A stretch of DNA of 64,000 nt from assembly GCF_964213995.1 (NCBI RefSeq), contig NC_135823.1, forward strand, positions 44,082,001 to 44,146,000, read 5' to 3'. Positions 9,655-28,820 of this stretch are shown piece after piece. Source of the stretch: Mustelus asterias. Lineage: Eukaryota. A model generated the notes under the pieces. It worked only from the letters and a program-made list of their open reading frames with translations. It ran no database searches and was not told the DNA's origin. A program made the translations under genes and the position numbers. The stretch's first letter is position 1; every line of letters starts with the position of its first letter.

Positions 9655-10075
9655 AAAATAGAATCATATAGTGCAGAAGAAGCCCTTCAGCCCATCAAGT
9701 CTGCACCAACACATTGGAAACACCTGAACTAATCTCATCTGCCAGCACTTGGCTCACAGCCTTGAATGTTATGATGTGGCAAGTGCTCATCCACATACTT
9801 CTTAAAGGATGTGAGGCAACCCGCCACCGCCATCCTCCCAGGCAGCGCATTCCAGACCGTCACCACCCTCTGGGTAAAAATGTTTTTCCTCACATCCCCC
9901 AAACCTCCTGCCCCCTCACCTTGAGCCTATGTCCCCTTGTGACTGACCCTTCAACTAAGGGAAACAGCTGCTCCCTATCCACTCTGTCCATGTCTCTCAT
10001 AATCTTATACACCTTGATCAGGTCGCCCCTCAGTCTTCGCTGCTCCAACGAAAACAGCCCAAGCCTATGCAACCT
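9655..10075 (-). mobile_element. CR1 LINE 3' fragment
   Basis: Encodes LGLFSLEQRRLRGDLIKVYKIM, typical of the CR1 ORF2 C-terminus. Confidence 0.85.
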
Positions 10076-10781
10076 AAAATACCTGCCAGTCTTGTTAATA
10101 CCGTCAAGGATCTGAAGATCAAACTTTTTAAAAAGGTGCCCTGTCTTCAATAATGCATTTACTGGGTCATTTTGGAATTCCAGGTCCAGATGAGCAATGT
10201 CTCTCATGACTTCCTTGTTGCATTGGAACAAGATACTGTCATGCACATCATCTACCAACTCTGACTCTAAACTTTTTGGATGTTCCACATTTAGTTTAGG
10301 CTGATTGATGCCTCTCAATGAAAGAAATCTTCTTATTCTCACATTCTCTTATTACCTCTTCATAAAGCAAATTGTATTGCTGTGGCAGACCCCAAATGTC
10401 ATATGGATTTCTTATCATTTGAGATGCCTAGCTAAAGTAATTCATTTTATATCTATCTGCCTCCAACATGAGCAATTTATTTTACATCCCATGTGTCTCT
10501 GACACAAATGGCAATGCCATTTCCTTTCTGCCTTCTCTGCCTATTCTAAACATGCTGCATTTATTTCAATCCCCTGAATTTAGTCGTGTTTAACTATCAC
10601 TGATAATGATTCTCCTTCTTCAGTTACGGTATCTCTCTCCTTCAAGCCTACCATCATCTCTCCTCTCCTTAAAAGGAGGAACCCTGAGCTCTCCACCATT
10701 GGCTGTACCTTCAGCTGGCAAAGGCCCTAAACTCTGGAATTCCCGCCCTAATCCTCTCCGTCTCTCTATCTCTCTTTCCTC

Positions 10782-13371
10782 AAAAGAACAAAGAACAAAG
10801 AAAATTATAGCACAAGAACAGGCCCTTCGGCCCTCCAAGCCTGCATCGACCATGCTGCCCAACTTAACTAAAACCCCCTACCCTTCCGGGGACCATAGCT
10901 CTCCATTCCCATCCTATTCATGTACTTGTCAAGACAACCCTTAAAAGTCACTACCGTATCCACTTCCACTACCTCCCCCAGCAACGAGTTCCAGGCACCC
11001 ACTACTCTCTGTGTAAAAAATCTGCCTCGTACATCTCCTTTAAACCTTGCCCCTCGCACCTTAAACCTATGCCCCCTAGTAATTGACTCTTCCACCCTGG
11101 GAAAAAGCTTCTGACTATCCACTCTGTCCATGCCTCTCATAATCTTGTAGACTTCTATCAGGTCTCCCCTCAACCTCCGTCGCTCCAGTGAGAACAAACC
11201 AAGAACAAACCTCTCCTCATAGCTAATGCCCTCCATACCAGGCAACATCCTGGTAAATATTTTCTGTACCCTCTCCAAAGCCTCCACATCCTTCTGGTAG
11301 TGTGACAACCAGAATTGAACACTATATTCCAAGTGCGGCCTAACTATGGTTCTATAAAGCTGCAACATGACTTGCCAATTTTTAAACTCAATACCCCGGC
11401 CGATGAAGGCAAGCATGCCATATGTCTTCTTGACTACCTTCTCCACCTGCATTGCCACTTTCAGTGACCTGTTTACCTGTACACCCAGATTCCTTTACCT
11501 ATCAATACTCTTAAGGCTTCTGCCATTTACTGTATATTTCCAATCTGTATTAGACCTTCCAAAATGCATTACCTCACATTTGTCCAGAGATTAAACTCCA
11601 TCTGCCATCTCTCCGCCCAAGTCTCCAACTGATCTATATCCTGCTGGATCCTCTGATGGTCCTCATCGCTATCCACAAATCCACCAACCTTTGTGTCATC
11701 CGCAAACTTACTAATCAATCCAGTTACATTTTCTTCCAAATCATTTATATATATTATAAACAGCAAAGGTCCCAGCACGGATCCCTGAGGAACACCACTT
11801 GTCACAGCCCTCCATTCAGAAACGCATCTTTCCACTGCTACCCTCTGTCTTCTTTGACCGAGCCAATTTTGTATCCACCTTGCCAGCTCACCTCTGATCC
11901 CATGAGAGGCCTTATCAAAGGCCTTACTGAAATCCATGTAGACAACATCCACTGCCTACCCTCATCAATCATCTTCGTCACTTTCTCGAAAACCTTGATC
12001 AAGTTCGTGAGACACGACTTCCCCTTCACAAAACCATGTTGCCTCTCACTAATATGTCCACTTATTTCCAAGTAGGAATAAATCCTATCTCGAAGAATCC
12101 TCTCCAATAATTTTCCTACCATTGACGTAAGGCTCACCGGCCTGTAATTACCTGGATTATTCTTGCTACCCTTCTTAAACAAAGGAACAACATTGGCTAT
12201 TCTCCAATCCTCTGGGACCTCCCCTGTAGCCAGCGAAGATACGAAGATTTCTCTCAAGACCCCAGCAATTTCCTCCTCAATATTCTGGGGTATATCCCAT
12301 CAGGCCCTGGGGACTTGTCTACCTTAATGTTTCTCAAGATGCCAATACCTCCTCCTTTTTGATCTCAACATGACTCAAACTATCTGCACATCCTTTCCCA
12401 GACTCATCATCCACCAAGTCCTTCTCTTTGGTGAATACTGAAGCAAAGTACTCATTTAATACCTCGCCCATTTCCTCTAGCTCCATGCATAGATTCCCTC
12501 CCTTGTCTGTGAGTGGGCCAACCCTCTCCCTGGCTACCCTCTTGCTCTTTATATATGTATAAAAAGCCTTGGGATTCTCCTTAATCCTGCTGGCCAATGC
12601 TTTTTCATGACCCCTTTTAGCCCTTCTTACTACTTGCTTAAGTTTCTTTCTACTTTCCTTGTATTCCACACTTGCTTCATGTGTTCCCAGCCTCCTAGCT
12701 TTGACAAATGCTTCCTTTTCCTCTTCGAGTAGTCTCGCAATATCTCTCATTATCCAAGGTTCCCAAAACTTGCCATACTTATCCTTCATCCTTACAGGAA
12801 TGTGCCGGTCCTGAATCCCTATCAACTTACACTTGAAAGCCTCCCACATGCCAGATGTTGATTTGCCCTCAAACATCTGCCCCCAATCTACATTCTTCAG
12901 TTCCTGCCTAATATTGTTATAATTAGCCTTCCCTCAATTTAGCACCTTAACTTGAGGACTACACTTATCTTTATCCGTCAGTACCTTAAAGCTTACTAAA
13001 TTGTGGTCACTGTTCCCGAACTGCTCCCCTACTGAAACATCGACCACCTGGCCGGGCTCATTCCCCAATACCAGGTCCAGTATGGCCCCTTCCCTAGTTG
13101 GACTATCTACATACTGTTTCAGGAAGCCCTCCTGGATGCTCCTTACAAACGCTGCCCCATCCACACTCCTGGCACTAAGTGAGTTCCAGTCAATATAGGG
13201 GAAATTAAAATCTCCCACAACAACCCTGTTACTTTTACACCTTGCCAAAATCTGCCTACATATCTGTTCCTCAATCTCCCACTGGCAGTTGGGTGGCCTA
13301 TAGTAAATCCCCAACATTGTGATTACACCTTTCCTATTCCTGAGCTCTACCCATATTGCCTCGCTGTATGA
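10782..13371 (-). mobile_element. 5'-truncated CR1 LINE (APE endonuclease + RT, frameshifted), nested in an L2-like 3' fragment (~10690-10781 and 13372-13530)
   Basis: Successive ORF pieces with GDFN, LDLVL, SDH (endonuclease); NYRPVSLTS, DFSKAFD, GVPQGSVLGP, FADD (RT); RPHLEY and RRLRGDLIEVYK; (TTCTTTG)n tail. Confidence 0.95.
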
Positions 13372-13609
13372 TCCTCCTTTAACATATACCTCTTTGGCCA
13401 AATCTATGGTCATCTACCCTAATGTCACCTTAAATGTCAAAATTTGTTGTTTTTTCTAACACCCCTGTGAAGTACTTTGGGATGCTTTATTCTGTTGAAG
13501 GTGCTATATCATTACAAATTGTTGTTGTTGTTTCTGATCTTCCTATCATATTGTAGTTCCCTACAAAACTAAAACAAAACAATGAAGTTGGCGTCATCTG
13601 TGCCAATCT

Positions 13610-13942: not shown

Positions 13943-15098
13943 TGTCATGTACTCTGTTGTGTAGGGACGTAACAATACACATGAACAAAGAGTGATTTAG
14001 TCACAATAAGTATTGCAAATGCTAGGTTCTGGGCCGGGACTTAGAAATTTCAGCCATTTTCAGGAATCCTGCCACTGGGGCGGTATTCTCCATCATGGCA
14101 AAAACCAGGGCCTCGGTCTCACACATGCACATACAAAGACTGGATATACACTGCAGTTGATCCAGTCTCTTCTGATTTATAATTTCCAGTCTCCCAAGTG
14201 GGTTTCTTGAATGGATTTGATCATTTAAAGTTGAAGTAAGAGTCTTGTAACAGGTTTCTTTGAATATCTAGGAGGTTGGTTCTTCGGTGAACTTTGAAAC
14301 CGGAACAGGTTAAGTACTTTGGCTGCTTGATTGTTTTAAGCTAATTTCAGTGTCTGGTTCTCTGATTGGTTGATGACTGATGGTTCTGATCAACTTCTAG
14401 GTCCTAAAACTAATTTTGATCACATGACCACTGTGTTAACATTTCTGAAGCCAAGCCAGTCTGGTTTAGATGGGGAAGATCATTATGATACAATGGGAAG
14501 TTGACACTGGCCATTAAGTGTCAATGTTCCCTTTTGTCCAGTATAAAACATGGAGACGATCAGTCTGGAAGCTCCATAATCTTTAGGTGTTGGCCCATTC
14601 TTAAATAGTGAGATGTCTGAATTCCACAGATAACTATGATGCATCCTTGCCTTCGCCAACATTTAATTCGGTATTTGCCAGAGATGTCACGGTGGCACAG
14701 TGGTTAGCACTGCTGCCTCACAGCGCCAGGAATCCGGGTTCGATTCCCAGCTTGGGTTGCTGTCTGTGTGGAGTCTGCACGTTCTCCTTGTGTCTGTGTA
14801 GATTTCCTCTGGGTGCCTTGGTTTCCTCACACAGTGTGAAAGGCGTGCTGGTTAGATGCATTGACCTGAACAGGTGCCGGAATGTGGCGACTGGGGGAAT
14901 TTCATAGTAACTTCATTGCAGTATTAATGTCAGCCTACTTGTGACTAATAAATGAACTTTACTTTAGACTTGATACTATCCATAGTCCAAATGCCAAAAG
15001 TCATATATTTGTGGCAGCCGTTTTGACAGCTTGTTTGTGTCCAATTTCTAAAATTTACTGTAAGTTCATAATATGATGTGCCTTTACTGGGAATGACA
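13943..15098. mobile_element. Probable old solo LTR interrupted by a SINE
   Basis: TGTCAT...ATGACA inverted termini; ~14160-15098 is clearly homologous to ~43275-43984, which adjoins a decayed gag. No TSD found. Confidence 0.5.
14683..14970 (+). mobile_element. HE1-type V-SINE, alternative tail
   Basis: Head, V-domain and alternative tail. Confidence 0.85.
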
Positions 15099-15924
15099 CT
15101 TGGTACCAGTATATCCAGCACTTTGCTGCCTCTGTCTCTGTGTATATCCAATATCCATCTCTAGCTCACTACCATGAACATGTCAATGTCCCAATAATCT
15201 TTTACTGGCCCATCCATTTAATAGTGAGAATATCTAAAGGAGCTCGGCTTATTCACCTCATATCACATGGCAGTATTACAAAGAAGAGCAGAAGAGGTTT
15301 CCCCCACGTGTCCTGACCAATATTTACTAATCGCCATTAGAATAAATAGATTATCTAGTCATTGTCACATTGCTGTTTGTGGGAACTTACTGCGTGTGTT
15401 ATCATATTTACCACAACAGTGGCTACAGTTGCTTCCGGAACTTCCAGTGCTATAACTGATGATACGGAACCATGAATAAAGATGCTCAATTATGGTGACC
15501 AAAGCTTAATAAGATAAATACTGTTGCATTTGCTAACATAATCAGATGTCATATGGTCAAAACAAGCACTGTGATCATGTCAATGTCCTAAGAATGCCAT
15601 TTTGCAACCCTATTGGAGCAGCTTGACACAGGAGACCCGATGAGTGTGACCGATTTGCTACCAGGAAACTGAGGTCTGAAAAACTAGAGGCCTGAGAAAT
15701 TTAATCTCGGATATGATCCCAAACAACCTGGAGTTAAATTCCAGTATCAATGACATCTTTTGAAACACAAGCTGAATATAAATTCCTACTACCAAAAGAG
15801 GGGGGGGGGGGACTTTTTTTTGAACAAGGAATGTTCCGTCATACTTCCCATTTACTTTAGCAGTAAGGTGGAGAATGTCCAACTGTACTTTTGATGTAAT
15901 GATATCACCCTTATCAATGTATTT

Positions 15925-16396
15925 GAGGGGTGTTTTGCCAGTTGATTGGGTTTTACCATGCTGTTTTACCAGTTGTTTGTGATTTTCAGGGCTATTTTAC
16001 CAGTTGTTTGGGACTTTCAGGACTGTTTGACCAGTTGTTTGGGATTTTCAGGGCAGTTTTCCCAGTTGCTTGGGTTTTTCGGGACTGTTTACCAGTTGTT
16101 TGGGATTTTCAGGGCTGTTTTACCAGTTGCTTGGGTTTTTCGGGACTGTTTTACCAGTTTCTTGGGTTTTTCAGGGCTGTTTTATCCATTGTTTTGGATT
16201 CTCTGGGCTGTTTTATCTGTTGTTTTGGATTTTCTGGGCTATTTTATCAGTTGTTCTGGATTTTTTGGGCTGTTTTACCTGTTGTTTGGGATTTTCTGGA
16301 CTGTTTTATCTGTTGTTTGGGATTTTCAGGGCTATTTTGCCAGTTGTTTGGGATTTTCAGGGCTGTTTTGCCAGTTGTTTGGGATTTTTGGGACGG
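15925..16396. repeat. 31-bp minisatellite, left part (~15 units)
   Basis: Degenerate tandem unit ACCAGTTGTTTGGGATTTTCAGGGCTGTTTT. Confidence 0.95.
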
Positions 16397-16714
16397 TGTG
16401 GTGAACCATCGTTGGTTACCACTGTGGGGTTATTCCAATGTTACTGTTGGGTTAGGGTGTTGACACTGTGGGGTTGTTATAATGTTGTTGTTGGGTTAGG
16501 GTGTTACACTGTGGGATTAATATACCTGTGGTGGATGCTGTTATGGCACATCCCGGTCGGGCCCCGCCTCCTGGGGAGAGGTATAAGACCCTCTGCTCAG
16601 GCGGGACCCCTCCAGTCTGGAATGGTGTACTCGTGTTTAGATAGTTCCATTGTTTGTCAATAAAAGCCTTCAATCGCTGAAGCCTTGTACCTCGTGCTTG
16701 ATTGTCGCGCATCA
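16397..16714 (+). repeat. 5' LTR (318 bp)
   Basis: TGTGG...CATCA; GC box CCCCGCC 16562-16568, TATAAG 16582-16587, AATAAA 16659-16664. Confidence 0.97.
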
Positions 16715-16715
16715 A

Positions 16716-16730
16716 TTTTATTGACAAACA
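16716..16730 (+). promoter_or_regulatory. Non-tRNA primer-binding-site position: 15-nt perfect complement of LTR nt 16651-16665
   Basis: TTTTATTGACAAACA is the reverse complement of TGTTTGTCAATAAAA. It starts 1 nt after the LTR end and there is no TGG. Confidence 0.75.
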
Positions 16731-16755
16731 CAAAACTCTCGACAGTAAAGAGAGT

Positions 16756-19700
16756 ATGGAGCAAATGCTGAAACCAGAGCGTCTGACGCTGGACCCACGT
16801 GCGGTCGGTGCCTCTAACACCTTCGACCACTGGCTGAAGTGTTTCGAGGACTACCTGGCGGCCTCTGCAGCAGTTACTACGGACAACGACAGACTCCAGG
16901 TCCTCCACGCGAGGGTAAGCGACACGGTCTATCTCGCGATTCGTGCGGCCACCACTTACCCGAGGACCATCGAGCTCTTGAAAAAACGATACACGAGACC
17001 ACCCAACGAGATTCACGCTCGTTACCTCCTCGCTACACGACGTCGGCAGTTGGGCGAAACCATGGAGGACTACGCCAATGAGCTCTTGCAGCTTGCCAAG
17101 GGCTGCGACTGCAAAGCTGTGTCGGCTGAGCAGTACATGTACGACCTCGCCCGAGATGCGTTCGTAGCAGGGGTAGGGTCCTCGTACATCCGGCTTAAGC
17201 TATTGGAGAAAGGGAACCTCAACCTGACCCAAGCGATGGAGATGGCTGAGATGCTGGAGGCAGCGTCGAAAAGCTTGGCTCTGTACCCCGAAGACCACGT
17301 GGAGACAACGTGGCAGGAGCAAGCACAAATCCCTCCTCGCCCCACGGGCTCGCGCTCCCATATCGACCCGACGACAGCGGCAGCTCCAGGCGGCCAGCGG
17401 TGCTATTTTTGCGGAGGAGCCAAGCATCCACAGCAACAGTGTCCAGCTAAAACGGTGATCTGCAGTCAGTGCGGTAAAAAGAGGCACTACGCGAAAGTCT
17501 GCAGATCGAAGCCCAAGAACGGCAGTGCAGCCTGTGACCCTCCAGAGCGGAGACAATCTCCTTCGGCGTCGCAGTATCCACGAGGTCCGACCACGTGCGA
17601 ATCCAGGACGACGCCATCGTGGCTGGCGGAGGAGGAGGATGACCACCAGGAGTTGCTACGCTTGGCGCCCTCACCCACGTGCGATTCATGGGGGCGGCCA
17701 TCGTGGTCGACGACGACCAGGAGCGACCAGCAGGGGTCCTCAGTATCAACCTCGGCTGCCTGCAGTGACGTCCAAGGGCCAACGGTGGCGTCGATCTCTC
17801 TGGACCAGACAAAGCATCACAGGCTTGACTGTTCGATGATGAACATCAAGGTAAATGGTCGTACTGCGTATTGTCTGTTTGACAGTGGGAGCACCGAGAG
17901 TTTTATTCACCCTGACACTGCAAAGAGGTGTGGACTCCGGGTTCTACCTGCCAAACAGACAATTTCTATGGCATCACGGTCCCGGTCTGTACCGATCCAA
18001 GGACGTTGTGTGGTAACCCTGGAGGTGCAGGGCACAATTTACGAGCGATACAGGCTCCTTGTGTTGCCGCACCTTTGCGCGCCAATTCTCCTCGGACTAA
18101 ACTTTATGGTCCACATGAAGAGTGTGATCCTACAGTACGGTGGGCCACTCCCTTCGCTGGCAGTAGGGAATCAGCCGCAGCCTCCAAATTGTCCAAAGCG
18201 CCCCGCATGCAATCTTTCCACACTAAAGATCACCACACCCTCTTTATTTAAGAATCTGGTACCAGGCTGCAAGCCCATCGCTACTAAAAGTAGGCGTTAC
18301 AGCGCTGAAGACCGGATCTTCATTAGATCTGAGGTTCAGCGGCTCCTCAAAGAAGGGATCATACAGCCCAGTGCTAGTCCGTGGAGAGCGCAGGTCGTGG
18401 TGGTTAAAAGCGGGAACAAACCCCGGATGGTCATCGACTACAGTCAGACCATTAACCATTATACGCAGCTGGATGCGTATCCTCTCCCGCGCATATCTGA
18501 TATGGTCAATCAGATTGCGCAGTACCGGGTGTTCTCCACCATAGACCATAAGTCCGCCTACCACCAACTCCCCATCCGCCCAGAGGACCGACAATATACG
18601 GCTTTTGAGGCGGATGGTCGTCTGTATCAGTTTCTTAGGGTTCCATTTGGTGTCACCAATGGGGTCTCGGTCTTCCAGCGTGCTATGGACCGAATGGTGG
18701 ACCAGAACGGGTTGCGGGCTACCTTCCCGTACCTGGATAACGTCACCATCTGCGGCCATGACCAGCAGGACCATGACACAAACCTCCAGAACTTTCTGCG
18801 CACTGCGTCTCGCCTGAATCTGACCTATAACAGGGAGAAGTGTGTATTCCGTACGCGCAGGTTAGCTATCCTGGGATACGTGGTGGAAAACGGGGTCATC
18901 GGCCCTGATCCAGACCGTATGCGCCCCCTTACTGAACTTCCCTTGCCCGCTAGCACAAAAGCACTGAGGAGATGCCTCGGCTTTTTTTCTTATTATGCGC
19001 AGTGGGCCCCCAACTACGCGGACAAAGCCCGTCCGCTCATCAAGTCCACGACTTTCCCACTCACGCCGGAGGCCCAATTGGCCTTCAAGGCTTTGAAAAG
19101 CGACATTGCGAAAGCCACGATGCACGCGGTGGATGAATCCATCCCTTTTCAGGTGGAAAGTGATGCATCGGATTTCGCCCTGGCCGCCACACTGAACCAG
19201 GCAGGCAGGCCCGTCGCGTTTTTTTCCCGCACCCTTCAAGGTCCCGAAATTCGGCATTCAGCGGTGGAGAAGGAGGCTCAGGCTATTGTGGAGGCCATCA
19301 GACACTGGCGCCATTACCTGGCGGGGAAGCGGTTCACCCTGATCACGGATCAACGATCCGTGGCGTTTATGTTCAGTAATACGCAGAGGGGCAAGATCAA
19401 GAATGATAAGATCTTGCGGTGGAGAATTGAGCTCTCCACCTATAATTACGATATTATGTATCGTCCAGGGAAACTCAATGAGCCCTCGGATGCCCTCTCG
19501 CGCGGAACATGCGCTATCATGCAGGAGGACCGCTTGAACGCCCTCCATAATGACCTGTGCCATCCTGGGGTCACTCGGCTCTACCACTTCATAAAAGCCC
19601 GTAACCTGCCCTACTCGGTGGAGGATGTCAGGTCTGTAACGAGAAGCTGTCGGATTTGCGCGGAATGCAAACCGCACTTTTATCGACCGGACCGGGCACA

Positions 19701-20730
19701 ATTGGTCAAGGCCACTCGCCCCTTCGAGAGGCTGAGTGTGGATTTTAAGGGCCCCCTTCCCTCAACGGACCGGAATGTGTATTTTCTCAATATCAGAGAT
19801 GAATACTCCCGGTTCCCGTTTGTTGTTCCCTGTGCGGACACGTCGACTGCCACAGTGATTAAGGCATTCAGTGATCTTTTTACCCTGTTCGGGTACCCCT
19901 GCTACATACATAGCGACAGGGGCTCGTCGTTCATGAGTAACGACTTGAGGCAATTCCTGCTCTCATACGGGATTGCCTCTAGTAGAACCACGAGCTACAA
20001 CCCTAGGGGTAACGGACAGGTGGAGAGAGAGAATGCTACAGTCTGGAAGGCTGTCCTATTGGCGCTGAAGTCCAGGGGCCTTCCAGTCTCCCGTTGGCAG
20101 GAGGTCCTTCCAAATGCGCTTCATTCCATTCGCTCCCTCCTGTGTACGGCAACCAATGCTACTCCCCACGAGAGGATGTTCTCATTCCCTCGGAAGTCGT
20201 CCTCGGGGATCTCCTTACCAGCCTGGTTGACGTACCCAGGACCCGTCCTTCTGCGGTGACATGTGAGGGCCCGCAAGTCCGACCCCTTGGTCGAACCGGT
20301 CCAACTCCTCCACGCCAACCCTCAGTATGCCTATGTGGCATATCCTGACGGGCGAGAGGACACGGTCTCGATTCGAGACCTGGCACCCGCAGGGGACGTA
20401 GCAACTCCTGTCGCTCCTATACCCCCTGTCACGAATCCCCTATCACTTCTTTCCTCCCCGGACGTGGCGCGGTCAGCACCGGGACCAGTGCATAACAGTT
20501 ATACTCCCATGTACAGCTTGCCTGAGACTCGGAGATCGGCGCCACCACAGAAGGTACCAGGATCCCCTGCACCACCGCTTCACCAGGGTCAACCGGCCCG
20601 GGAGTCCTCGAGGGGACAGCCGGACGCTGTTTTGGAGAGAACGCCACCGCAAGCACCTGCTCCGGTGTCACAACCGGTGTTGAGGAGATCACAGCGATGG
20701 TGCGGTCCTCCAGACCGTCTGGACTTGTAG
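16756..20730 (+). CDS. Gag-Pol polyprotein in a single frame (1324 codons) with one in-frame TGA at 20257-20259
   Basis: First ATG at 16756; two CCHC knuckles (CYFCGGAKHPQQQC, CSQCGKKRHYAKVC), protease LFDSGS, RT (PFG, YLDN), RNase H (ESDASD, EKEA, TDQ), integrase HHCC and D-D-E (DFKG, HSDRG, VEREN); ORF 20263-20730 continues in the same frame. Confidence 0.93.
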
Positions 20731-20783
20731 ATTTTTTTTGTATATATGTAAACTGTTTTCGCACCCCACCGGCCTTTGTTTTC

Positions 20784-20797
20784 AAAGGAGGGGTGAA
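20784..20797 (+). promoter_or_regulatory. Polypurine tract
   Basis: AAAGGAGGGGTGAA immediately 5' of the 3' LTR. Confidence 0.9.
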
Positions 20798-21116
20798 TGT
20801 GGTGAACCATCGTTGGTTACCACTGTGGGGTTATTCCAATGTTACTGTTGGGTTAGGGTGTTGACACTGTGGGGTTCTTATTATGTTGTTGTTGGGTTAG
20901 GGTGTTTACACTGTGGGATTAATATACCTGTGGTGGATGTTGTTATGGCACATCCCGGTCGGGCCCCGCCTCCTGGGGAGAGGTATAAGACCCTCTGCTC
21001 AGGCGGGACCCCTCCAGTCTGGAATGGTGTACTCGTGTTTAGATAGTTCCATTGTTTGTCAATAAAAGCCTTCAATCGCTGAAGCCTTGTACCTCGTGCT
21101 TGATTGTCGCACATCA
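20798..21116 (+). repeat. 3' LTR (319 bp)
   Basis: About 98% identical to the 5' LTR; TATAAG at 20984, AATAAA at 21061-21066. Confidence 0.97.
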
Positions 21117-22083
21117 GACGGTTTTATCAGTTTTTTGGCATTTTCTGGGCTGTTTTATCAGTTGTTTGGGATTTTCAGGGCTCTTTTGCCAGTTGTTTGG
21201 GAATTTCAGGGCTGTTTTATCAGTAGTTTGGGATTTTCAGGGCTGTTTTGCCAGTTGTTTGGGATTTTCAGGTCTGTTTTATCAGTCGTTTGGGATTGTG
21301 GGACTGTTTTATCAGTTGTTTGGGATTTTCAGGGCTCTTTTGCCAGTTGTTTGGGAATTTCAGGGCTGTTTTATCAGTTGTTTGGGATTTTCAGGGCTGT
21401 TTTGCCAGTTGTTTGGGATTTTTCTGGGCTGTTTTATCAGTTGTTTGAGTTTTTGGAGCTGTTTTGCCAGTTGTTTGGGATTTTCTGGACTATTTTGCCG
21501 CTGTTTGGGAATTTCACGGCTGTTTTATCAGTTTTTTGTGATTTTCAGGGCTGTTTTGCCAGTTTGGGATTTTCCGTACTGTTTTATCAGTTGTTTGGGA
21601 CTTTCAGGGCTGTTTTATCAGTTGTCTGAGTTTTTGGAGCTTTTTTCGCAGTTGTTTGAGTTTTTGGAGCTGTTTTCCCAGTTGTTTGGGATTTTTCTGG
21701 GCTGTTTTAACAGTTGTTTGGGACTTTTAGGGCTGTTTTATCAGTTGTTTGTGATTTTTTGGGCTTTTTGCCAGTTGTTTAGGATTTTTGGGACTGTTTT
21801 ATCAGTTGTTTGGGATTTTCAGAGCTGTTTTATCAGTTGTCTGAGTTTTTGGAGCTTTTTTCCCAGTTGTTTGGGATTTTCTGGGCTGTTTTACCTGTTG
21901 TTTGGGACTTTTAGGGCTGTTTTATCAGTTGTTTGGGATTTTCAGGGCTGTTTTACCTGTTGTTTGGGACTTTTAGGGCTGTTTTATCAGTTGTTTGGCT
22001 TTTCGGGGCTGTTTTACCAGTTGTTTGGGATTTTCAGGGCTGTTTTACCAGTTGTTTGGGATTTTCAGGGCTGTTTTACCAGT
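21117..22083. repeat. 31-bp minisatellite, right part (~31 units)
   Basis: Same unit as 15925-16396; the array resumes in register after the TSD. Confidence 0.95.
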
Positions 22084-22616
22084 GGTCTGTGTTGAGCAGC
22101 GGTAGGAACCAGAGTGCGCGGGTCCAGTTGCTGGGAGGGAAGATTAGGTTGACGGAGCGCTGAGGAGATGGGGGGTGGGTTTCGGTGTGACTTCAGTTAT
22201 AGAACGGGTGAGGGGGGCGAGGTGGGTTTTGATGGTGCAGAGATTGGTATGATTTGAAATGTTTCCGACACAGAGTGTTGTTTTGGATGAAGTGGTGGCG
22301 GTGTCTCGGCTCCAGAGCCTGACTGCCTCCTGCACCAACATCCAGAGGGAGCTGGCTGTGTGAATGGAATCAAACCAACACAACATGGAGTTACTGCACA
22401 CTTCAGCACTTATTCCTGGAGACTGGGCAAGGCCCCACATACTGATGGCGCCTGAACTTGATCCCCACCTATATATCCGAGCTGTGCCAGCAAGGTGCTG
22501 CTTAAACCTGATGCTAAACTGACCTGGGACATATGCCTGCCTCATTATTGTCGACAAATGGTCTCCCTATGTATGGTGCACCAACTAATTCACAGCCAGA
22601 ATTGCCAGCTCTGCTT

Positions 22617-22910
22617 GGACAGTGGTTAGCAGTGCTGCCTCACAGCACCAAGGACTGGGGTTCGGTTCCCAGCTTGGGTCACTGTCTGTGCAAAGTCTGC
22701 ACGTTCTCCCCGTGTCTCCTCCGGGTGCTCTGGAAGAAACCGGAGCACCCAGAAGATGTCCAAAAGTTGTGCTGATTAGGTGCGTGGCCATGCCAAAGTT
22801 CTCCCTCAATGTACCCAAACTGGTGCCGGAATGTGATGACTACCGGATTTTCACAGTAATTTCATTGCAATGTTAATGTAAGCCTACTTGTGACACTAAT
22901 AAACTTAAAA
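22617..22910 (+). mobile_element. HE1-type V-SINE, alternative tail (internally rearranged)
   Basis: Head and alternative tail; part of the V-domain is inverted (GAAACCGGAGCACCC). Confidence 0.8.
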
Positions 22911-24139
22911 CATTGTCCTGGTAGGCTTCACCAGCGATCAGACTCCCCAGTCAAACCACCCTGGTCACCCTAATGCCAATGTTTTAGCAGCTACTAAACA
23001 CAAAATGGTCAAAACCTGTCAGAAAAACACCTGACGTTAAAATCTGGTTGTGATTTTCCCCCCCTAGTTGCTGGCGGCAGTGTTGACTACATTAGAGATG
23101 GATTCCTGGAGACTCAAAGGCAGTCTTAGAGGGTGACAATCCTACTCACCAAATCCTGGAATCACAGTCTATGTAAGCACTGGTCTTGACAAGTTGTAAA
23201 TAAATACCTAAGATGCAAGTATGAATACACCAGCAGGTGGACTCAGAGCACCTGTAGTGTAGTCTGATTTCCCTGCGTTATTCAGCTCCCATACAGCTAT
23301 GCGGGTTCTCAGTCCCATTGCGACATTGTTATGACTAAGGGGAGAAAATTATTGTGCCAAAATAATAGCTAAATGACCCCTACATGCTTAACTTAAAAAT
23401 AGTTAGGAACAAGTGGAATAATGTGCAAAGAATCTAAAATGATCTCCGTGCAGTCAATATCCAACAGCTTGGAACAGAAGTTTAATACCAAGGGAAGGGT
23501 GTAGATCAATATTGCACGCACAAACATTAGGAAACTGTATGGATGATTAATGACGTAATCAGTACAGCTTAAATTGAAATGAAGTATTCACTTAGACCAA
23601 ACAGGAGTTAACTGGACCCACCAGTTCTCCAACTAGAAATGCATATTAAATGGCCAGGTGTCTTGCGTCATGGATTCCCAATCCTCTTTTCACTTTGTTA
23701 TAAACCACAAAAATGATCAGAAAATCTAAGCATATGCACTTCAAAATTTTCACAGCCACCTTGTACAGGGGGCAAAGTGTTTGCTCTGCTGACTGGTGAA
23801 AGTATCAACTACTGGAAAATTACAAAAAAACTGCATGCAGGCATTGTTCAGGATGCCTCCAGAGGTTCAGCCAAAAAAAAGGCTGTCATGATCAAGACTA
23901 TTCAGTCGAGTCAAAGAAAGTGTACTAAAAGGAGTCTGACAACAAACAGCTGGGGACAAAGGGCTGACGGTTCCCTAATTCATTACCCCTCACTTGTGTC
24001 GAATGGGCATTAAAAAAACTATTCATATTATGTGCAGTTGATTTCATGGGTTTCTTTTGGTGTTACCACTTTGGGAAGCAGTTTTGCAACATGGAAATGT
24101 TGTAAGGAAGCAGGAGTGATAATGAAATGACTACTTTAA

Positions 24140-27718: not shown

Positions 27719-28170
27719 GTAAGTTAGTAAAAATGCTCAGCACCGAATCATATGACATAAATTGCATTTTTGAATGCTTGGAACTGCCACATGCTGATCA
27801 AATGGGTGGTCTTTGTCTCAATAAGAAATTACGAACCTACTTAAGTTGATTTTTTAAATCTTTTGTAACCAATTAAATAAATTATCCTTATGTCCTACAA
27901 TCTTGTCGGGCAGATTGGTGCCTTTATTCTGGTTGGACCACATATGGACTAATGAGTAGTTCTGGGCACCAGACCTTAGGAAGGACATATTGGCCTTTGA
28001 GGGTTTGCAGTATAGATTTACCAGAATGATACATGGATTCCAACAATTAAATTACAAGGAGAGATTACACAAACTGCTAATATTCCCTGGAATTTGGAAA
28101 ATTAGGAGTGATTTGATGATGTTTTCAAGATATTGAGGTAGTTGGAGTGAAAGTCTTTCCACTGCTTTGA

Positions 28171-28472
28171 GGGCGGCACAGTGGTTAGCAGTGCTGCCTC
28201 ACAGCGCCAGGGACCCGGGTTCGATTCCCAGCTTGGGTGACTGTCTGTGCAGAGTCTGCACGTTCTCCCCGTGTCTGTGTGGGTTTCCTGTGGGTGCACC
28301 GGTTCCTCCCACTGTCCTAAAGACATGCTGGTTAGGTGCATTGGTCATGCTAAATTCTCCTTCAGTGTCCCGAACAGGCGTCGGAGTGTGGCGACGAGGG
28401 TATTTTCACAGTAACTTCACTGCAGTGTTAATGTAAGCCTACTTGTGACACGAATAATAAATAATAAAATAA
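28171..28472 (+). mobile_element. HE1-type V-SINE, alternative tail, nested in an old CR1 fragment (~27930-29060)
   Basis: Head, V-domain and alternative tail. Confidence 0.87.
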
Positions 28473-28555
28473 AGAGTCTCGTGGCATTGTCTAAAAATTA
28501 GAACATGACTTTTTAAGATTGAGATTAGAAAGTATTTCTACATACAAATGGTAAG

Positions 28556-28820
28556 GGGACGGCACGGTAGCACAGTGGTTAGCACTGCTACCTCACAGCA
28601 CCAGGGACCCGGGTTCGATTTCCTTGGGTCACTGTCAGTGTGGAGTTTGGACATTCTCCCCATGTCTGCGTGGGTTTCCTCCGAGTGGTCCGGTTTCGTC
28701 CCACATTCTGAAAAACGTGCATTGACCTGAACAGCCGCCGGACTGTGGTGACTCGGGGAATTTCACGGTAACTTCATTGCAGTGTTAATATAAGCCTTAC
28801 TTGTGACTAATAAATAAACT
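28556..28820 (+). mobile_element. HE1-type V-SINE, alternative tail
   Basis: Head, V-domain and alternative tail. Confidence 0.85.

What the first reader, a model, noticed from the sequence alone, without database searches (positions are those of the whole stretch)
16651..16730. Gypsy element with no tRNA PBS: the PBS position is a perfect complement of its own poly(A)-signal region (candidate self-priming / poly(A)-occlusion switch)
Seen: the 5' LTR ends CATCA at 16714. Instead of the TGG of a tRNA PBS, 16716-16730 reads TTTTATTGACAAACA, the exact reverse complement of 16651-16665 (TGTTTGTCAATAAAA), which contains the AATAAA. This gives a 15-bp stem with a 50-nt loop. Only the 5' LTR can form it, because the partner arm is internal. 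Known: Tf1 of S. pombe self-primes by pairing its first 11 mRNA nt with the PBS, followed by cleavage; HIV-1 dampens its 5' poly(A) signal with a hairpin. Inference: cutting after 16665 would leave a 3'-OH aimed into U5, which is the geometry of a minus-strand primer. The primer arm appears to lie about 35-40 nt downstream of the TATA-predicted start, not at the cap as in Tf1, and it ends in AAUAAAA. One stem could therefore both silence premature polyadenylation and supply the primer.
Basis: partly seen in the sequence, partly recalled or inferred. Interest (0 to 1): 0.82.

Follow-up and report, generated by a model that had tools for sequence, protein, structure and literature searches.

The report
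Retrotransposon primer doubles as poly(A) signal
A young jumping gene and dozens of distant relatives have no tRNA docking site and instead carry, where DNA copying starts, an exact mirror of a stretch of their own end-repeat that usually holds the poly(A) signal, so they likely prime copying with their own RNA, here predicted to be cut about 50 letters inside the transcript rather than at its start as in yeast Tf1.

Summary
Observation confirmed: a 15-bp perfect stem (16651-16665 with 16716-16730) at the primer site of a young 4.7-kb non-chromovirus Ty3/gypsy element; shuffles reach at most 11 bp. It is a clade trait. In 42 hand-picked family representatives with 35 different arm sequences, 458 of 462 core positions are Watson-Crick paired, with one G-U. 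In this genome 24 of 27 arm variants present in both LTRs are mirrored at the primer site. Self-priming is likely (about 0.9). A conserved TATA plus initiator puts the arm's end at +47 to +74 (here +52), so the primer is predicted to be internal, unlike Tf1; no RNA data tested this. Corrections: the 3' LTR copy of the arm can pair too, and poly(A) overlap is not obligatory (30 of 42; 10 of 10 in this genome). Occlusion is plausible but untested. The scan reported what appears to be the same self-priming group on other DNA (e1-7857539, e1-9954839 and others); my literature searches did not find it in print. New variant of a known kind.

The parts
16392..16396 (.). 5-bp target site duplication, left copy (right copy 21117-21121)
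   Evidence: identical 5-mers on both sides
16397..16714 (+). 5' LTR, 318 bp, TG...CA
   Evidence: direct repeat with 20798-21116; 4 substitutions and 1 indel
16582..16587 (+). TATA-like box (TATAAG)
   Evidence: 83 nt before the arm end, against 77-87 nt in eight other family representatives of this genome and 105 in one; kept in 19 of 20 copies of this family
16612..16618 (+). initiator-like motif; predicted transcription start at A16614
   Evidence: 32 nt after the TATA; YCARY at 31-35 nt in 93 of 96 TATA-bearing copies of related families, background 5.5%. Predicted, not mapped
16651..16665 (+). arm A, the likely self-primer (conserved core about the last 12 nt); predicted cut after 16665
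   Evidence: exact complement of 16716-16730; covaries across families
16659..16664 (+). AATAAA poly(A) signal inside arm A, the only one in the LTR
   Evidence: sequence; in this genome's families it alternates only between AATAAA and ATTAAA while neighbouring arm positions vary
16666..16715 (+). 50-nt loop: conserved (G/A)CCT just after the arm, rest of R and U5, one spacer A after the LTR end; predicted template of the minus strong-stop DNA
   Evidence: RCCT at +1..+4 in most of 42 representatives; spacer A in 38 of 42; CA end in 42 of 42, though CA was favoured by the anchor search
16716..16730 (+). arm B, primer-binding site without TGG
   Evidence: starts 2 nt after the LTR end
16756..20259 (+). 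single gag-pol frame: two CCHC-type knuckles, protease, RT, RNase H, integrase; ends at an in-frame stop inside the integrase tail in this copy
   Evidence: ORF list, Pfam
20260..20730 (+). remainder of the integrase tail, same frame; no chromodomain
   Evidence: no Pfam family; same frame as the main ORF
20784..20797 (+). polypurine tract
   Evidence: sequence directly before the 3' LTR
20798..21116 (+). 3' LTR, 319 bp
21053..21067 (+). second copy of arm A in the 3' LTR; also a perfect partner of the primer site
   Evidence: inverted-repeat scan

Best explanation
This is a young, high-copy, non-chromovirus Ty3/gypsy retrotransposon whose primer site is an exact complement of an arm in its own LTR, and it likely primes reverse transcription with that arm, which is predicted to lie inside the transcript and would be cut at its 3' end. 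Proposed steps: (1) transcription from about 16614 (predicted from TATA and initiator); (2) arm A pairs with the primer site 50 nt downstream (complementarity shown, folding predicted), which would also bury the 5' AAUAAA; (3) a cut after 16665, most likely by the element's RNase H as in Tf1 (inferred by analogy), leaves a capped RNA of about 52 nt with 12-15 paired bases and a 3'-OH facing U5; (4) RT copies the 50-nt loop and jumps to the 3' end using the short overlap between the arm end and the poly(A) site, roughly 10-30 nt (inferred); (5) plus-strand synthesis copies the primer back into the primer site, which would explain why the two arms change together without wobble pairs (inferred). 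Confidence: self-priming by this arm about 0.9; the internal, 5'-LTR-derived primer as described about 0.55; a useful poly(A)-masking role on top about 0.4.
For: Stem beyond chance. Kept at 15 of 15 pairs in 30 of 30 copies picked by the LTR-leader query and 20 of 20 picked by gag alone. 48 of 56 metagenome/MAG loci with a gag start and enough upstream DNA have 10 or more of 11 pairs at the anchor; a 49th has a 13-bp stem that the anchor missed. 42 family representatives, 35 distinct 11-mers: 458 of 462 Watson-Crick, 1 G-U, against 0.38-0.57 cross-family pairing at the variable positions 4-9 and 11. In 101 copies of other families of this genome pairing is 91-100 of 101 at positions 1-12 and falls to 83, 72, 59, 31 at 13-16; among 97 copies, arm variants in both LTRs are mirrored at the primer site in 24 of 27 cells (about nine distinct changes), 5'-only variants in 3 of 24. 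One family has lost even the TAAA ending and the primer site follows (L062). Three distant elements with a TGG primer site, and a fourth nested in L066, have no stem (5-7 bp). TATA-initiator geometry places the arm end at +47 to +55 in five clusters and +74 in one. Pairing runs 3.5 nt past position 11 against 1.0 across families, and in the 21 AG-type families positions 12 and 13 pair in 21 and 20 of 21, so the primer RNA likely reaches upstream of any 11-nt cap-proximal segment. Predicted unpaired probability of AAUAAA: 0.02 with the primer site, 0.4-0.5 without. Tf1 copies its primer into the cDNA 3' end (PMC11042837, passage).
Against: No RNA evidence: start site, poly(A) site and cut are all unmapped. 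The 3' LTR arm pairs equally well, so the source of the primer is open. 21 of 32 metagenome families carry an initiator-like AG exactly 11 nt from the arm end and only 2 of 32 have a TATA match upstream, which looks like Tf1 geometry. The three-duplex structure that Tf1 needs was not seen in a crude test (mean z 0.01, 1 of 42 below -2), so how the cut is specified is unexplained. Nothing obvious stops plus-strand copying after 12-16 nt of a 52-nt primer. 12 of 42 families lack A(A/T)TAAA in the arm, and only 3 of those have one in the loop. The representatives were hand-picked, one per family and the best copy where there were several; families are related (tree), so counts overstate independence. 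Seven of the 56 loci show no clean stem (one deletion, one decayed copy, two with little upstream DNA, three unexplained). Mirrored subfamily variants also fit selection for an RNA stem without primer copying.
Confidence: 0.55

Rival explanations
1. Ordinary Tf1-type geometry: the productive transcript starts at or just before the arm, so the primer is the first 11-15 nt of the RNA; the upstream TATA and initiator make a different transcript.
For: AG at arm positions 11/10, in TTAGT-like context, in 21 of 32 metagenome families; G at position 10 in 37 of 42 representatives; core length 11-12 bp matches Tf1's 11 (PMC7175516, passage); Tf2 uses alternative starts (PMC5341516, passages).
Against: In this family position 11 is T with no TATA 30 nt upstream; TATA plus initiator conserved 40-60 nt upstream of the core in 93 of 96 copies; positions 12-13, upstream of the AG, still covary. 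An RNA starting at the arm would put its AAUAAA within 15 nt of the cap.
Confidence: 0.17
2. Self-priming from the other copy of the arm: the 3' LTR arm of the genomic RNA (or a short LTR transcript acting in trans) pairs with the primer site, and its tail is cut or trimmed back to the duplex.
For: 21053-21067 is a perfect partner; trimming back to a duplex would need no site-specific cut; the arm always ends in A-rich sequence.
Against: The 5' arm is only 50 nt away and is transcribed first, and the fold from the predicted start favours it. A 3'-end primer would be exposed to RNase H before the plus strand could copy it (inference).
Confidence: 0.13
3. The stem is only a poly(A)-masking or packaging hairpin, or a DNA palindrome kept matched by fold-back copying or gene conversion, and priming uses something else.
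For: AAUAAA is buried in the predicted fold; A(A/T)TAAA in 10 of 10 representatives from this genome; one copy has a 5'-LTR-only variant mirrored at the primer site with intact target duplication (L231).
Against: Arm B starts at LTR end +2 with a fixed spacer across the clade, the position of a primer site; no alternative primer site exists; almost no G-U pairs; the stem persists without a poly(A) signal in 12 of 42 families. One mirrored singleton is within chance (about 0.1 expected, my estimate rates).
Confidence: 0.1
4. A host tRNA, tRNA half or other small RNA primes at this site.
For: tRNA halves prime some plant copia lineages (PMC6317226, passage); my tRNA sample was incomplete.
Against: No TGG; 35 different 11-mers each match their own LTR; the longest complement to 16714-16740 among 35 distinct tRNA-like sequences of 10 anticodon types from this genome was 8 nt.
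Confidence: 0.03

Closest known systems
Tf1/Tf2 of Schizosaccharomyces pombe, Tj1, Tosmo, and the Tf1/sushi chromovirus group
   Same: Ty3/gypsy order; primer site just downstream of the 5' LTR and complementary to an LTR sequence; core of 11-12 bp against Tf1's 11 (passages: PMC7175516, PMC4600332, bioRxiv 10.1101/2022.12.06.519325).
   Different: No chromodomain; arm predicted about 40 nt inside the RNA in this genome's families, not at the cap; arm only 24-69 nt from the primer site; arm overlaps the poly(A) signal; no sign of the flanking 'pretzel' duplexes in a crude test.
Plant Tcn1 (gypsy) and TAR (copia) lineages with predicted self-priming
   Same: Self-priming inferred from LTR-PBS complementarity; predicted for 12% of plant elements surveyed (PMC6317226, passages), so the trait is known to recur, including outside chromoviruses.
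   Different: Different lineages and hosts; the passages I saw did not report poly(A)-signal overlap or an internal primer.
Retroviral suppression of the 5' poly(A) site (HIV-1, foamy virus, MLV)
   Same: A poly(A) signal in R must be silenced at the 5' end and used at the 3' end (PMC3694450, passages).
   Different: There suppression is mainly by U1 snRNP at the splice donor, or by a weak site; the HIV-1 R-region hairpin (Das et al. 1999, seen only as a title in that paper's reference list) lies within R and so exists at both ends (recalled). Here the partner strand lies outside the LTR and is the primer site.
Named animal gypsy clades (CsRn1, Mag lineage, Cigr-1, MolGy)
   Same: LTR start TGTGGTG fits the CsRn1 5' motif in PMC3601003 (table); short single-ORF animal gypsy clades, many unnamed, are catalogued in PMC6238403 (passages).
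   Different: No reference sequences were available, so the clade is not named here. PMC6238403 has no mention of PBS or primer in its main text.

Membership tests
Ty3/gypsy LTR retrotransposon | protease-RT-RNase H-integrase order | tested here: met
   Pfam order; best solved relative is Ty3 RT, E 1.6e-49
Ty3/gypsy LTR retrotransposon | TG...CA LTRs, polypurine tract, target duplication | tested here: met
   exact 5-bp duplications in 58 of 71 scorable related copies and 15 of 16 scorable copies of this family
tRNA-primed LTR elements | TGG primer site complementary to a tRNA 3' end | tested here: not met
   no TGG; best tRNA complement 8 nt in a partial set of 35 sequences, 10 anticodon types
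Tf1/sushi group (self-primed chromoviruses) | primer site complementary to an LTR sequence | tested here: met
Tf1/sushi group (self-primed chromoviruses) | chromodomain at the integrase C-terminus | tested here: not met
   no Pfam hit on 20260-20727; no chromodomain family among precomputed domains of 120 listed homologs
Tf1/sushi group (self-primed chromoviruses) | [quoted passage not shown] | tested here: inconclusive
   motifs say internal for this genome's families and possibly cap-proximal for 21 of 32 metagenome families; no RNA data
Tf1/sushi group (self-primed chromoviruses) | three-duplex 'pretzel' around the primer site | tested here: not met
   crude duplex test of loop start against leader, own versus cross-family: mean z 0.01; loop folding mean z -0.5
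Tf1/sushi group (self-primed chromoviruses) | placement in the chromovirus branch | not testable with these tools
   no reference set; the tree holds only fetched loci
Tf1/sushi group (self-primed chromoviruses) | RNase H-dependent cut that frees the primer | not testable with these tools
   needs biochemistry
CsRn1 clade | 5' LTR motif TGTGGYG | tested here: met
   LTR starts TGTGGTG; motif from PMC3601003 table
CsRn1 clade | tRNA-type primer site and 4-bp duplication (both recalled, from no call) | tested here: not met
   self-complementary site and 5-bp duplication
5' poly(A)-site occlusion elements | poly(A) hexamer paired in the 5' context and freer in the 3' context | tested here: met
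   in silico only: unpaired probability 0.02 against 0.40; nine other representatives 0.00-0.02 with the primer site against 0.20-0.90 without
5' poly(A)-site occlusion elements | measured suppression of 5' cleavage | not testable with these tools
   no RNA run holds the stretch

The most novel reading that the evidence does not exclude
A widespread animal gypsy lineage replaced tRNA priming by recruiting its own poly(A)-signal element as the primer: in the vertebrate branch one duplex both locks the 5' poly(A) site during transcription and, after an internal cut about 52 nt from the cap, primes reverse transcription. That would be an independent, mechanistically different origin of self-priming from Tf1. 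The same AATAAA-GCCT motif in the LTR of two distant TGG-type elements fits recruitment from an older poly(A) signal.
Probability: 0.33. Interest if true: 0.78.

Novelty: new variant of a known kind. Interest (0 to 1): 0.56.

Why it matters
Self-priming has been shown experimentally only for fission-yeast Tf elements and is usually tied to the Tf1/sushi chromoviruses. A large non-chromovirus animal group with its own version would be another origin of tRNA-independent priming. An internal primer would need a cut and a copying stop that differ from Tf1. Overlap with the poly(A) signal offers a simple answer to the old problem of how identical LTRs silence the 5' poly(A) site. Such elements would also escape silencing by tRNA fragments that target primer sites (inference). 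The family has thousands of candidate copies in this genome, so RNA-end mapping can test it directly.

Tried and rejected
RNA evidence: no RNA holder listed; the four runs laid were contigs of unknown kind and cannot show ends, so they are not used as evidence. Viral contigs gave no relatives. Rfam found nothing in 14000-24000 at E 0.1. The tRNA search returned mostly one cluster; only 10 anticodon types were sampled, and the set did not identify the tRNA for the TGG-type control sites, so that test is weak. Clade naming failed: a conserved RT motif was in neither the mollusc paper's supplements (5 files searched, one scanned PDF unreadable) nor the library; the protein atlas gave only generic retrotransposon gag clusters. 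The original Tf1 self-priming papers, the Tf review and the Ciona paper were not held. Considered and rejected: the AG before the core as a splice acceptor (the primer site pairs with bases on both sides of it); cleavage at the normal poly(A) site as the priming cut (it would leave no overlap for the strand jump; inference); chance A/T complementarity (cross-family controls). Rows dropped: 35 of 140 fetched copies lacked a detectable 3' LTR; 4 more had a mis-set anchor or damaged arm, leaving 101; 4 more had gaps or a deletion in the arm, leaving 97 for variant classes. Of 93 metagenome/MAG loci, 37 had no usable gag start or upstream DNA. The tree used 46 rows of at least 200 aa.

Full report
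The observation. Bases 16716-16730 are the exact reverse complement of 16651-16665, with no extension inward or outward and a 50-nt loop. The 5' LTR runs 16397-16714 and the 3' LTR 20798-21116; they differ by 4 substitutions and one indel and are flanked by a 5-bp target duplication. No TGG follows the LTR. The best stem in 200 shuffles of the region was 11 bp. One correction: the 3' LTR holds the same arm at 21053-21067, an equally perfect partner.

The element. One gag-pol frame from 16756 encodes protease, RT, RNase H and integrase in gypsy order; the tail after an in-frame stop at 20257-20259 has no Pfam family, so no chromodomain. The closest named proteins come from rays and catsharks (74-83% over RT-RNase H), with relatives at about 60% in a sea anemone, a tunicate, insects and nematodes. 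The host is therefore probably a cartilaginous fish (inference). The family is young and abundant: 2,236 and 3,214 candidates in the 3.7-Gb genome, LTR pairs 98-100% identical. All 30 copies found with the LTR-leader query and all 20 chosen by gag alone keep 15 of 15 pairs.

Covariation across the clade. Of 93 related loci from metagenomes and genome bins (hosts unknown, probably animals), 56 had a gag start and enough upstream DNA. 48 of them have 10 or 11 of 11 pairs at an anchor two bases after a CA, and one more has a 13-bp stem the anchor missed. Seven do not: one deletion, one decayed copy, two with little upstream DNA, three unexplained. I picked one representative per family by hand (32 from these loci, 10 from this genome). 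They have 35 different 11-mers, 458 of 462 Watson-Crick pairs and one G-U; cross-family pairing at the variable positions 4-9 and 11 is 0.38-0.57. The arm ends in TAAA(A), is followed by (G/A)CCT, and lies 24-69 nt from the primer site. Three distant elements with TGG sites and a fourth nested in L066 have no stem; the distant rows sit apart from the clade on a long branch (100/99).

Covariation within this genome. Three gag searches gave other families; I fetched 140 copies, 105 had both LTRs and 101 could be anchored. Pairing is 91-100 of 101 at positions 1-12 from the arm's 3' end, then 83, 72, 59 and 31. Among 97 copies, variants present in both LTRs, hence older than the insertion, are mirrored at the primer site in 24 of 27 cells (about nine distinct changes). 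Variants in the 5' LTR alone are mirrored in 3 of 24, two of them subfamily alleles. This is the pattern expected if the primer is copied back into the primer site at each cycle, as reported for Tf1 (PMC11042837, passage). It also fits strict selection on the stem; the near absence of G-U pairs favours copying or DNA-level pairing.

Where the transcript starts. In this genome's families 96 of 101 copies have a TATA box and 93 of those have an initiator-like YCARY 31-35 nt later, against 5.5% background (six related clusters, not independent). The arm ends at +47 to +55 in five clusters and +74 in one. In the window TATAAG is at 16582 and the initiator A at 16614, giving +52; they are kept in 19 and 20 of 20 copies. 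The metagenome families differ: only 2 of 32 have a TATA match and 21 of 32 have AG in TTAGT-like context exactly 11 nt from the arm end, which recalls Tf1's 11-nt cap-proximal primer (PMC7175516, passage). Even there positions 12 and 13 pair in 21 and 20 of 21 against 0.49 and 0.59 across families, so the RNA likely begins further upstream or at mixed starts. A shift of the promoter upstream in the fish branch is possible but not shown.

The poly(A) idea. AATAAA at 16659-16664 is the only hexamer in the LTR. All 10 representatives from this genome have AATAAA or ATTAAA in the arm, and that position alternates only between these two forms while positions 8, 9 and 11 vary, as expected of a working signal. 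Folding buries it with the primer site present (0.02 unpaired) and frees it in the 3' context (0.40). But 12 of 42 families lack it in the arm, only 3 of those have one in the loop, and L062 has lost even the TAAA while staying mirrored. So masking may be useful in some families but is not what defines the stem. Two distant TGG-type elements share AATAAA-GCCT in their LTR, which suggests that the primer arm was recruited from an older poly(A) signal. Retroviruses solve the 5' poly(A) problem mainly through U1 snRNP or weak sites (PMC3694450, passages).

Mechanism. Shown: complementarity, its position, its covariation, the promoter motifs. Inferred: transcription from about 16614; co-transcriptional pairing of the 5' arm; a cut after 16665, probably by RNase H as in Tf1; a 50-nt strong-stop DNA; a jump over a 10-30 nt overlap; copying of the primer into the primer site. 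Open: which copy of the arm primes, what specifies the cut given no sign of the Tf1 'pretzel' (bioRxiv 10.1101/2022.12.06.519325, passage; crude test), and what stops copying of a long primer. tRNA priming is very unlikely, though my tRNA sample was partial.

What is known. Self-priming is established for Tf1 and assigned to the Tf1/sushi chromoviruses, and predicted for plant Tcn1 and TAR lineages (passages in PMC6317226, PMC4600332, PMC7175516). It works like Tf1 but is not a member of that group by the chromodomain and pretzel tests. Six searches on self-priming, one on Cigr-1, one on an RT motif and two on poly(A) occlusion returned no paper describing this animal clade or a primer overlapping the poly(A) signal. 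I saw search listings and passages only, no whole text; subscription journals and Repbase were not searched, and bioRxiv supplements were closed. I recall that some Repbase gypsy entries mention self-priming; this is unchecked. The scan's own notes describe what appears to be the same group in other genomes; I could not compare sequences (one search found none) and count them as leads only. Their titles do not show whether the TATA-initiator geometry or the mirrored-variant test was done before.

Verdict. Real feature, clade-wide, a new variant of a known kind. Self-priming about 0.9; internal 5'-arm primer about 0.55; the full dual-function reading about 0.33. Interest 0.56.

Noticed in passing
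window 15922-16388 and 21121-22083: The element is inserted in a 31-bp tandem array (15 and 31 copies).
   Followed up: partly
window 20257-20259: An in-frame stop interrupts the integrase tail in this copy; the frame continues to 20730.
   Followed up: partly
window 16398-16422 and 16415-16519: A hairpin-forming inverted repeat opens the LTR (sequence), followed by about 2.4 copies of a 44-bp repeat in U3.
   Followed up: no
L169, L172 (5' LTR): One family of this genome has a 12-13 bp inverted repeat flanking the TATA-initiator region, 77-79 nt apart; shorter ones occur in other families.
   Followed up: no
L231 (arm position 3): A single copy has a 5'-LTR-only change in the poly(A) hexamer that is mirrored at the primer site, with intact target duplication. 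Unexplained; within chance.
   Followed up: partly
L062: Arm ends in a sequence with no TAAA and no poly(A) hexamer, fully mirrored over 15 bp.
   Followed up: yes
L119:2906 and L123:1662: Distant elements with a TGG primer site carry the same AATAAA-GCCT motif in their LTR.
   Followed up: partly
L066:3260-3645: An LTR element with a TGG primer site lies next to or nested with a member of the self-complementary clade.
   Followed up: no
L111-L123: Contigs filed in bacterial genome bins carry eukaryote-type LTR retrotransposons, probably host contamination.
   Followed up: no
window 9890-13413 (- strand); 14675-14953, 22597-22902, 28156-28814: A broken LINE-like endonuclease/RT region (my reading of the ORFs) and four copies of a short interspersed repeat.
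   Followed up: no
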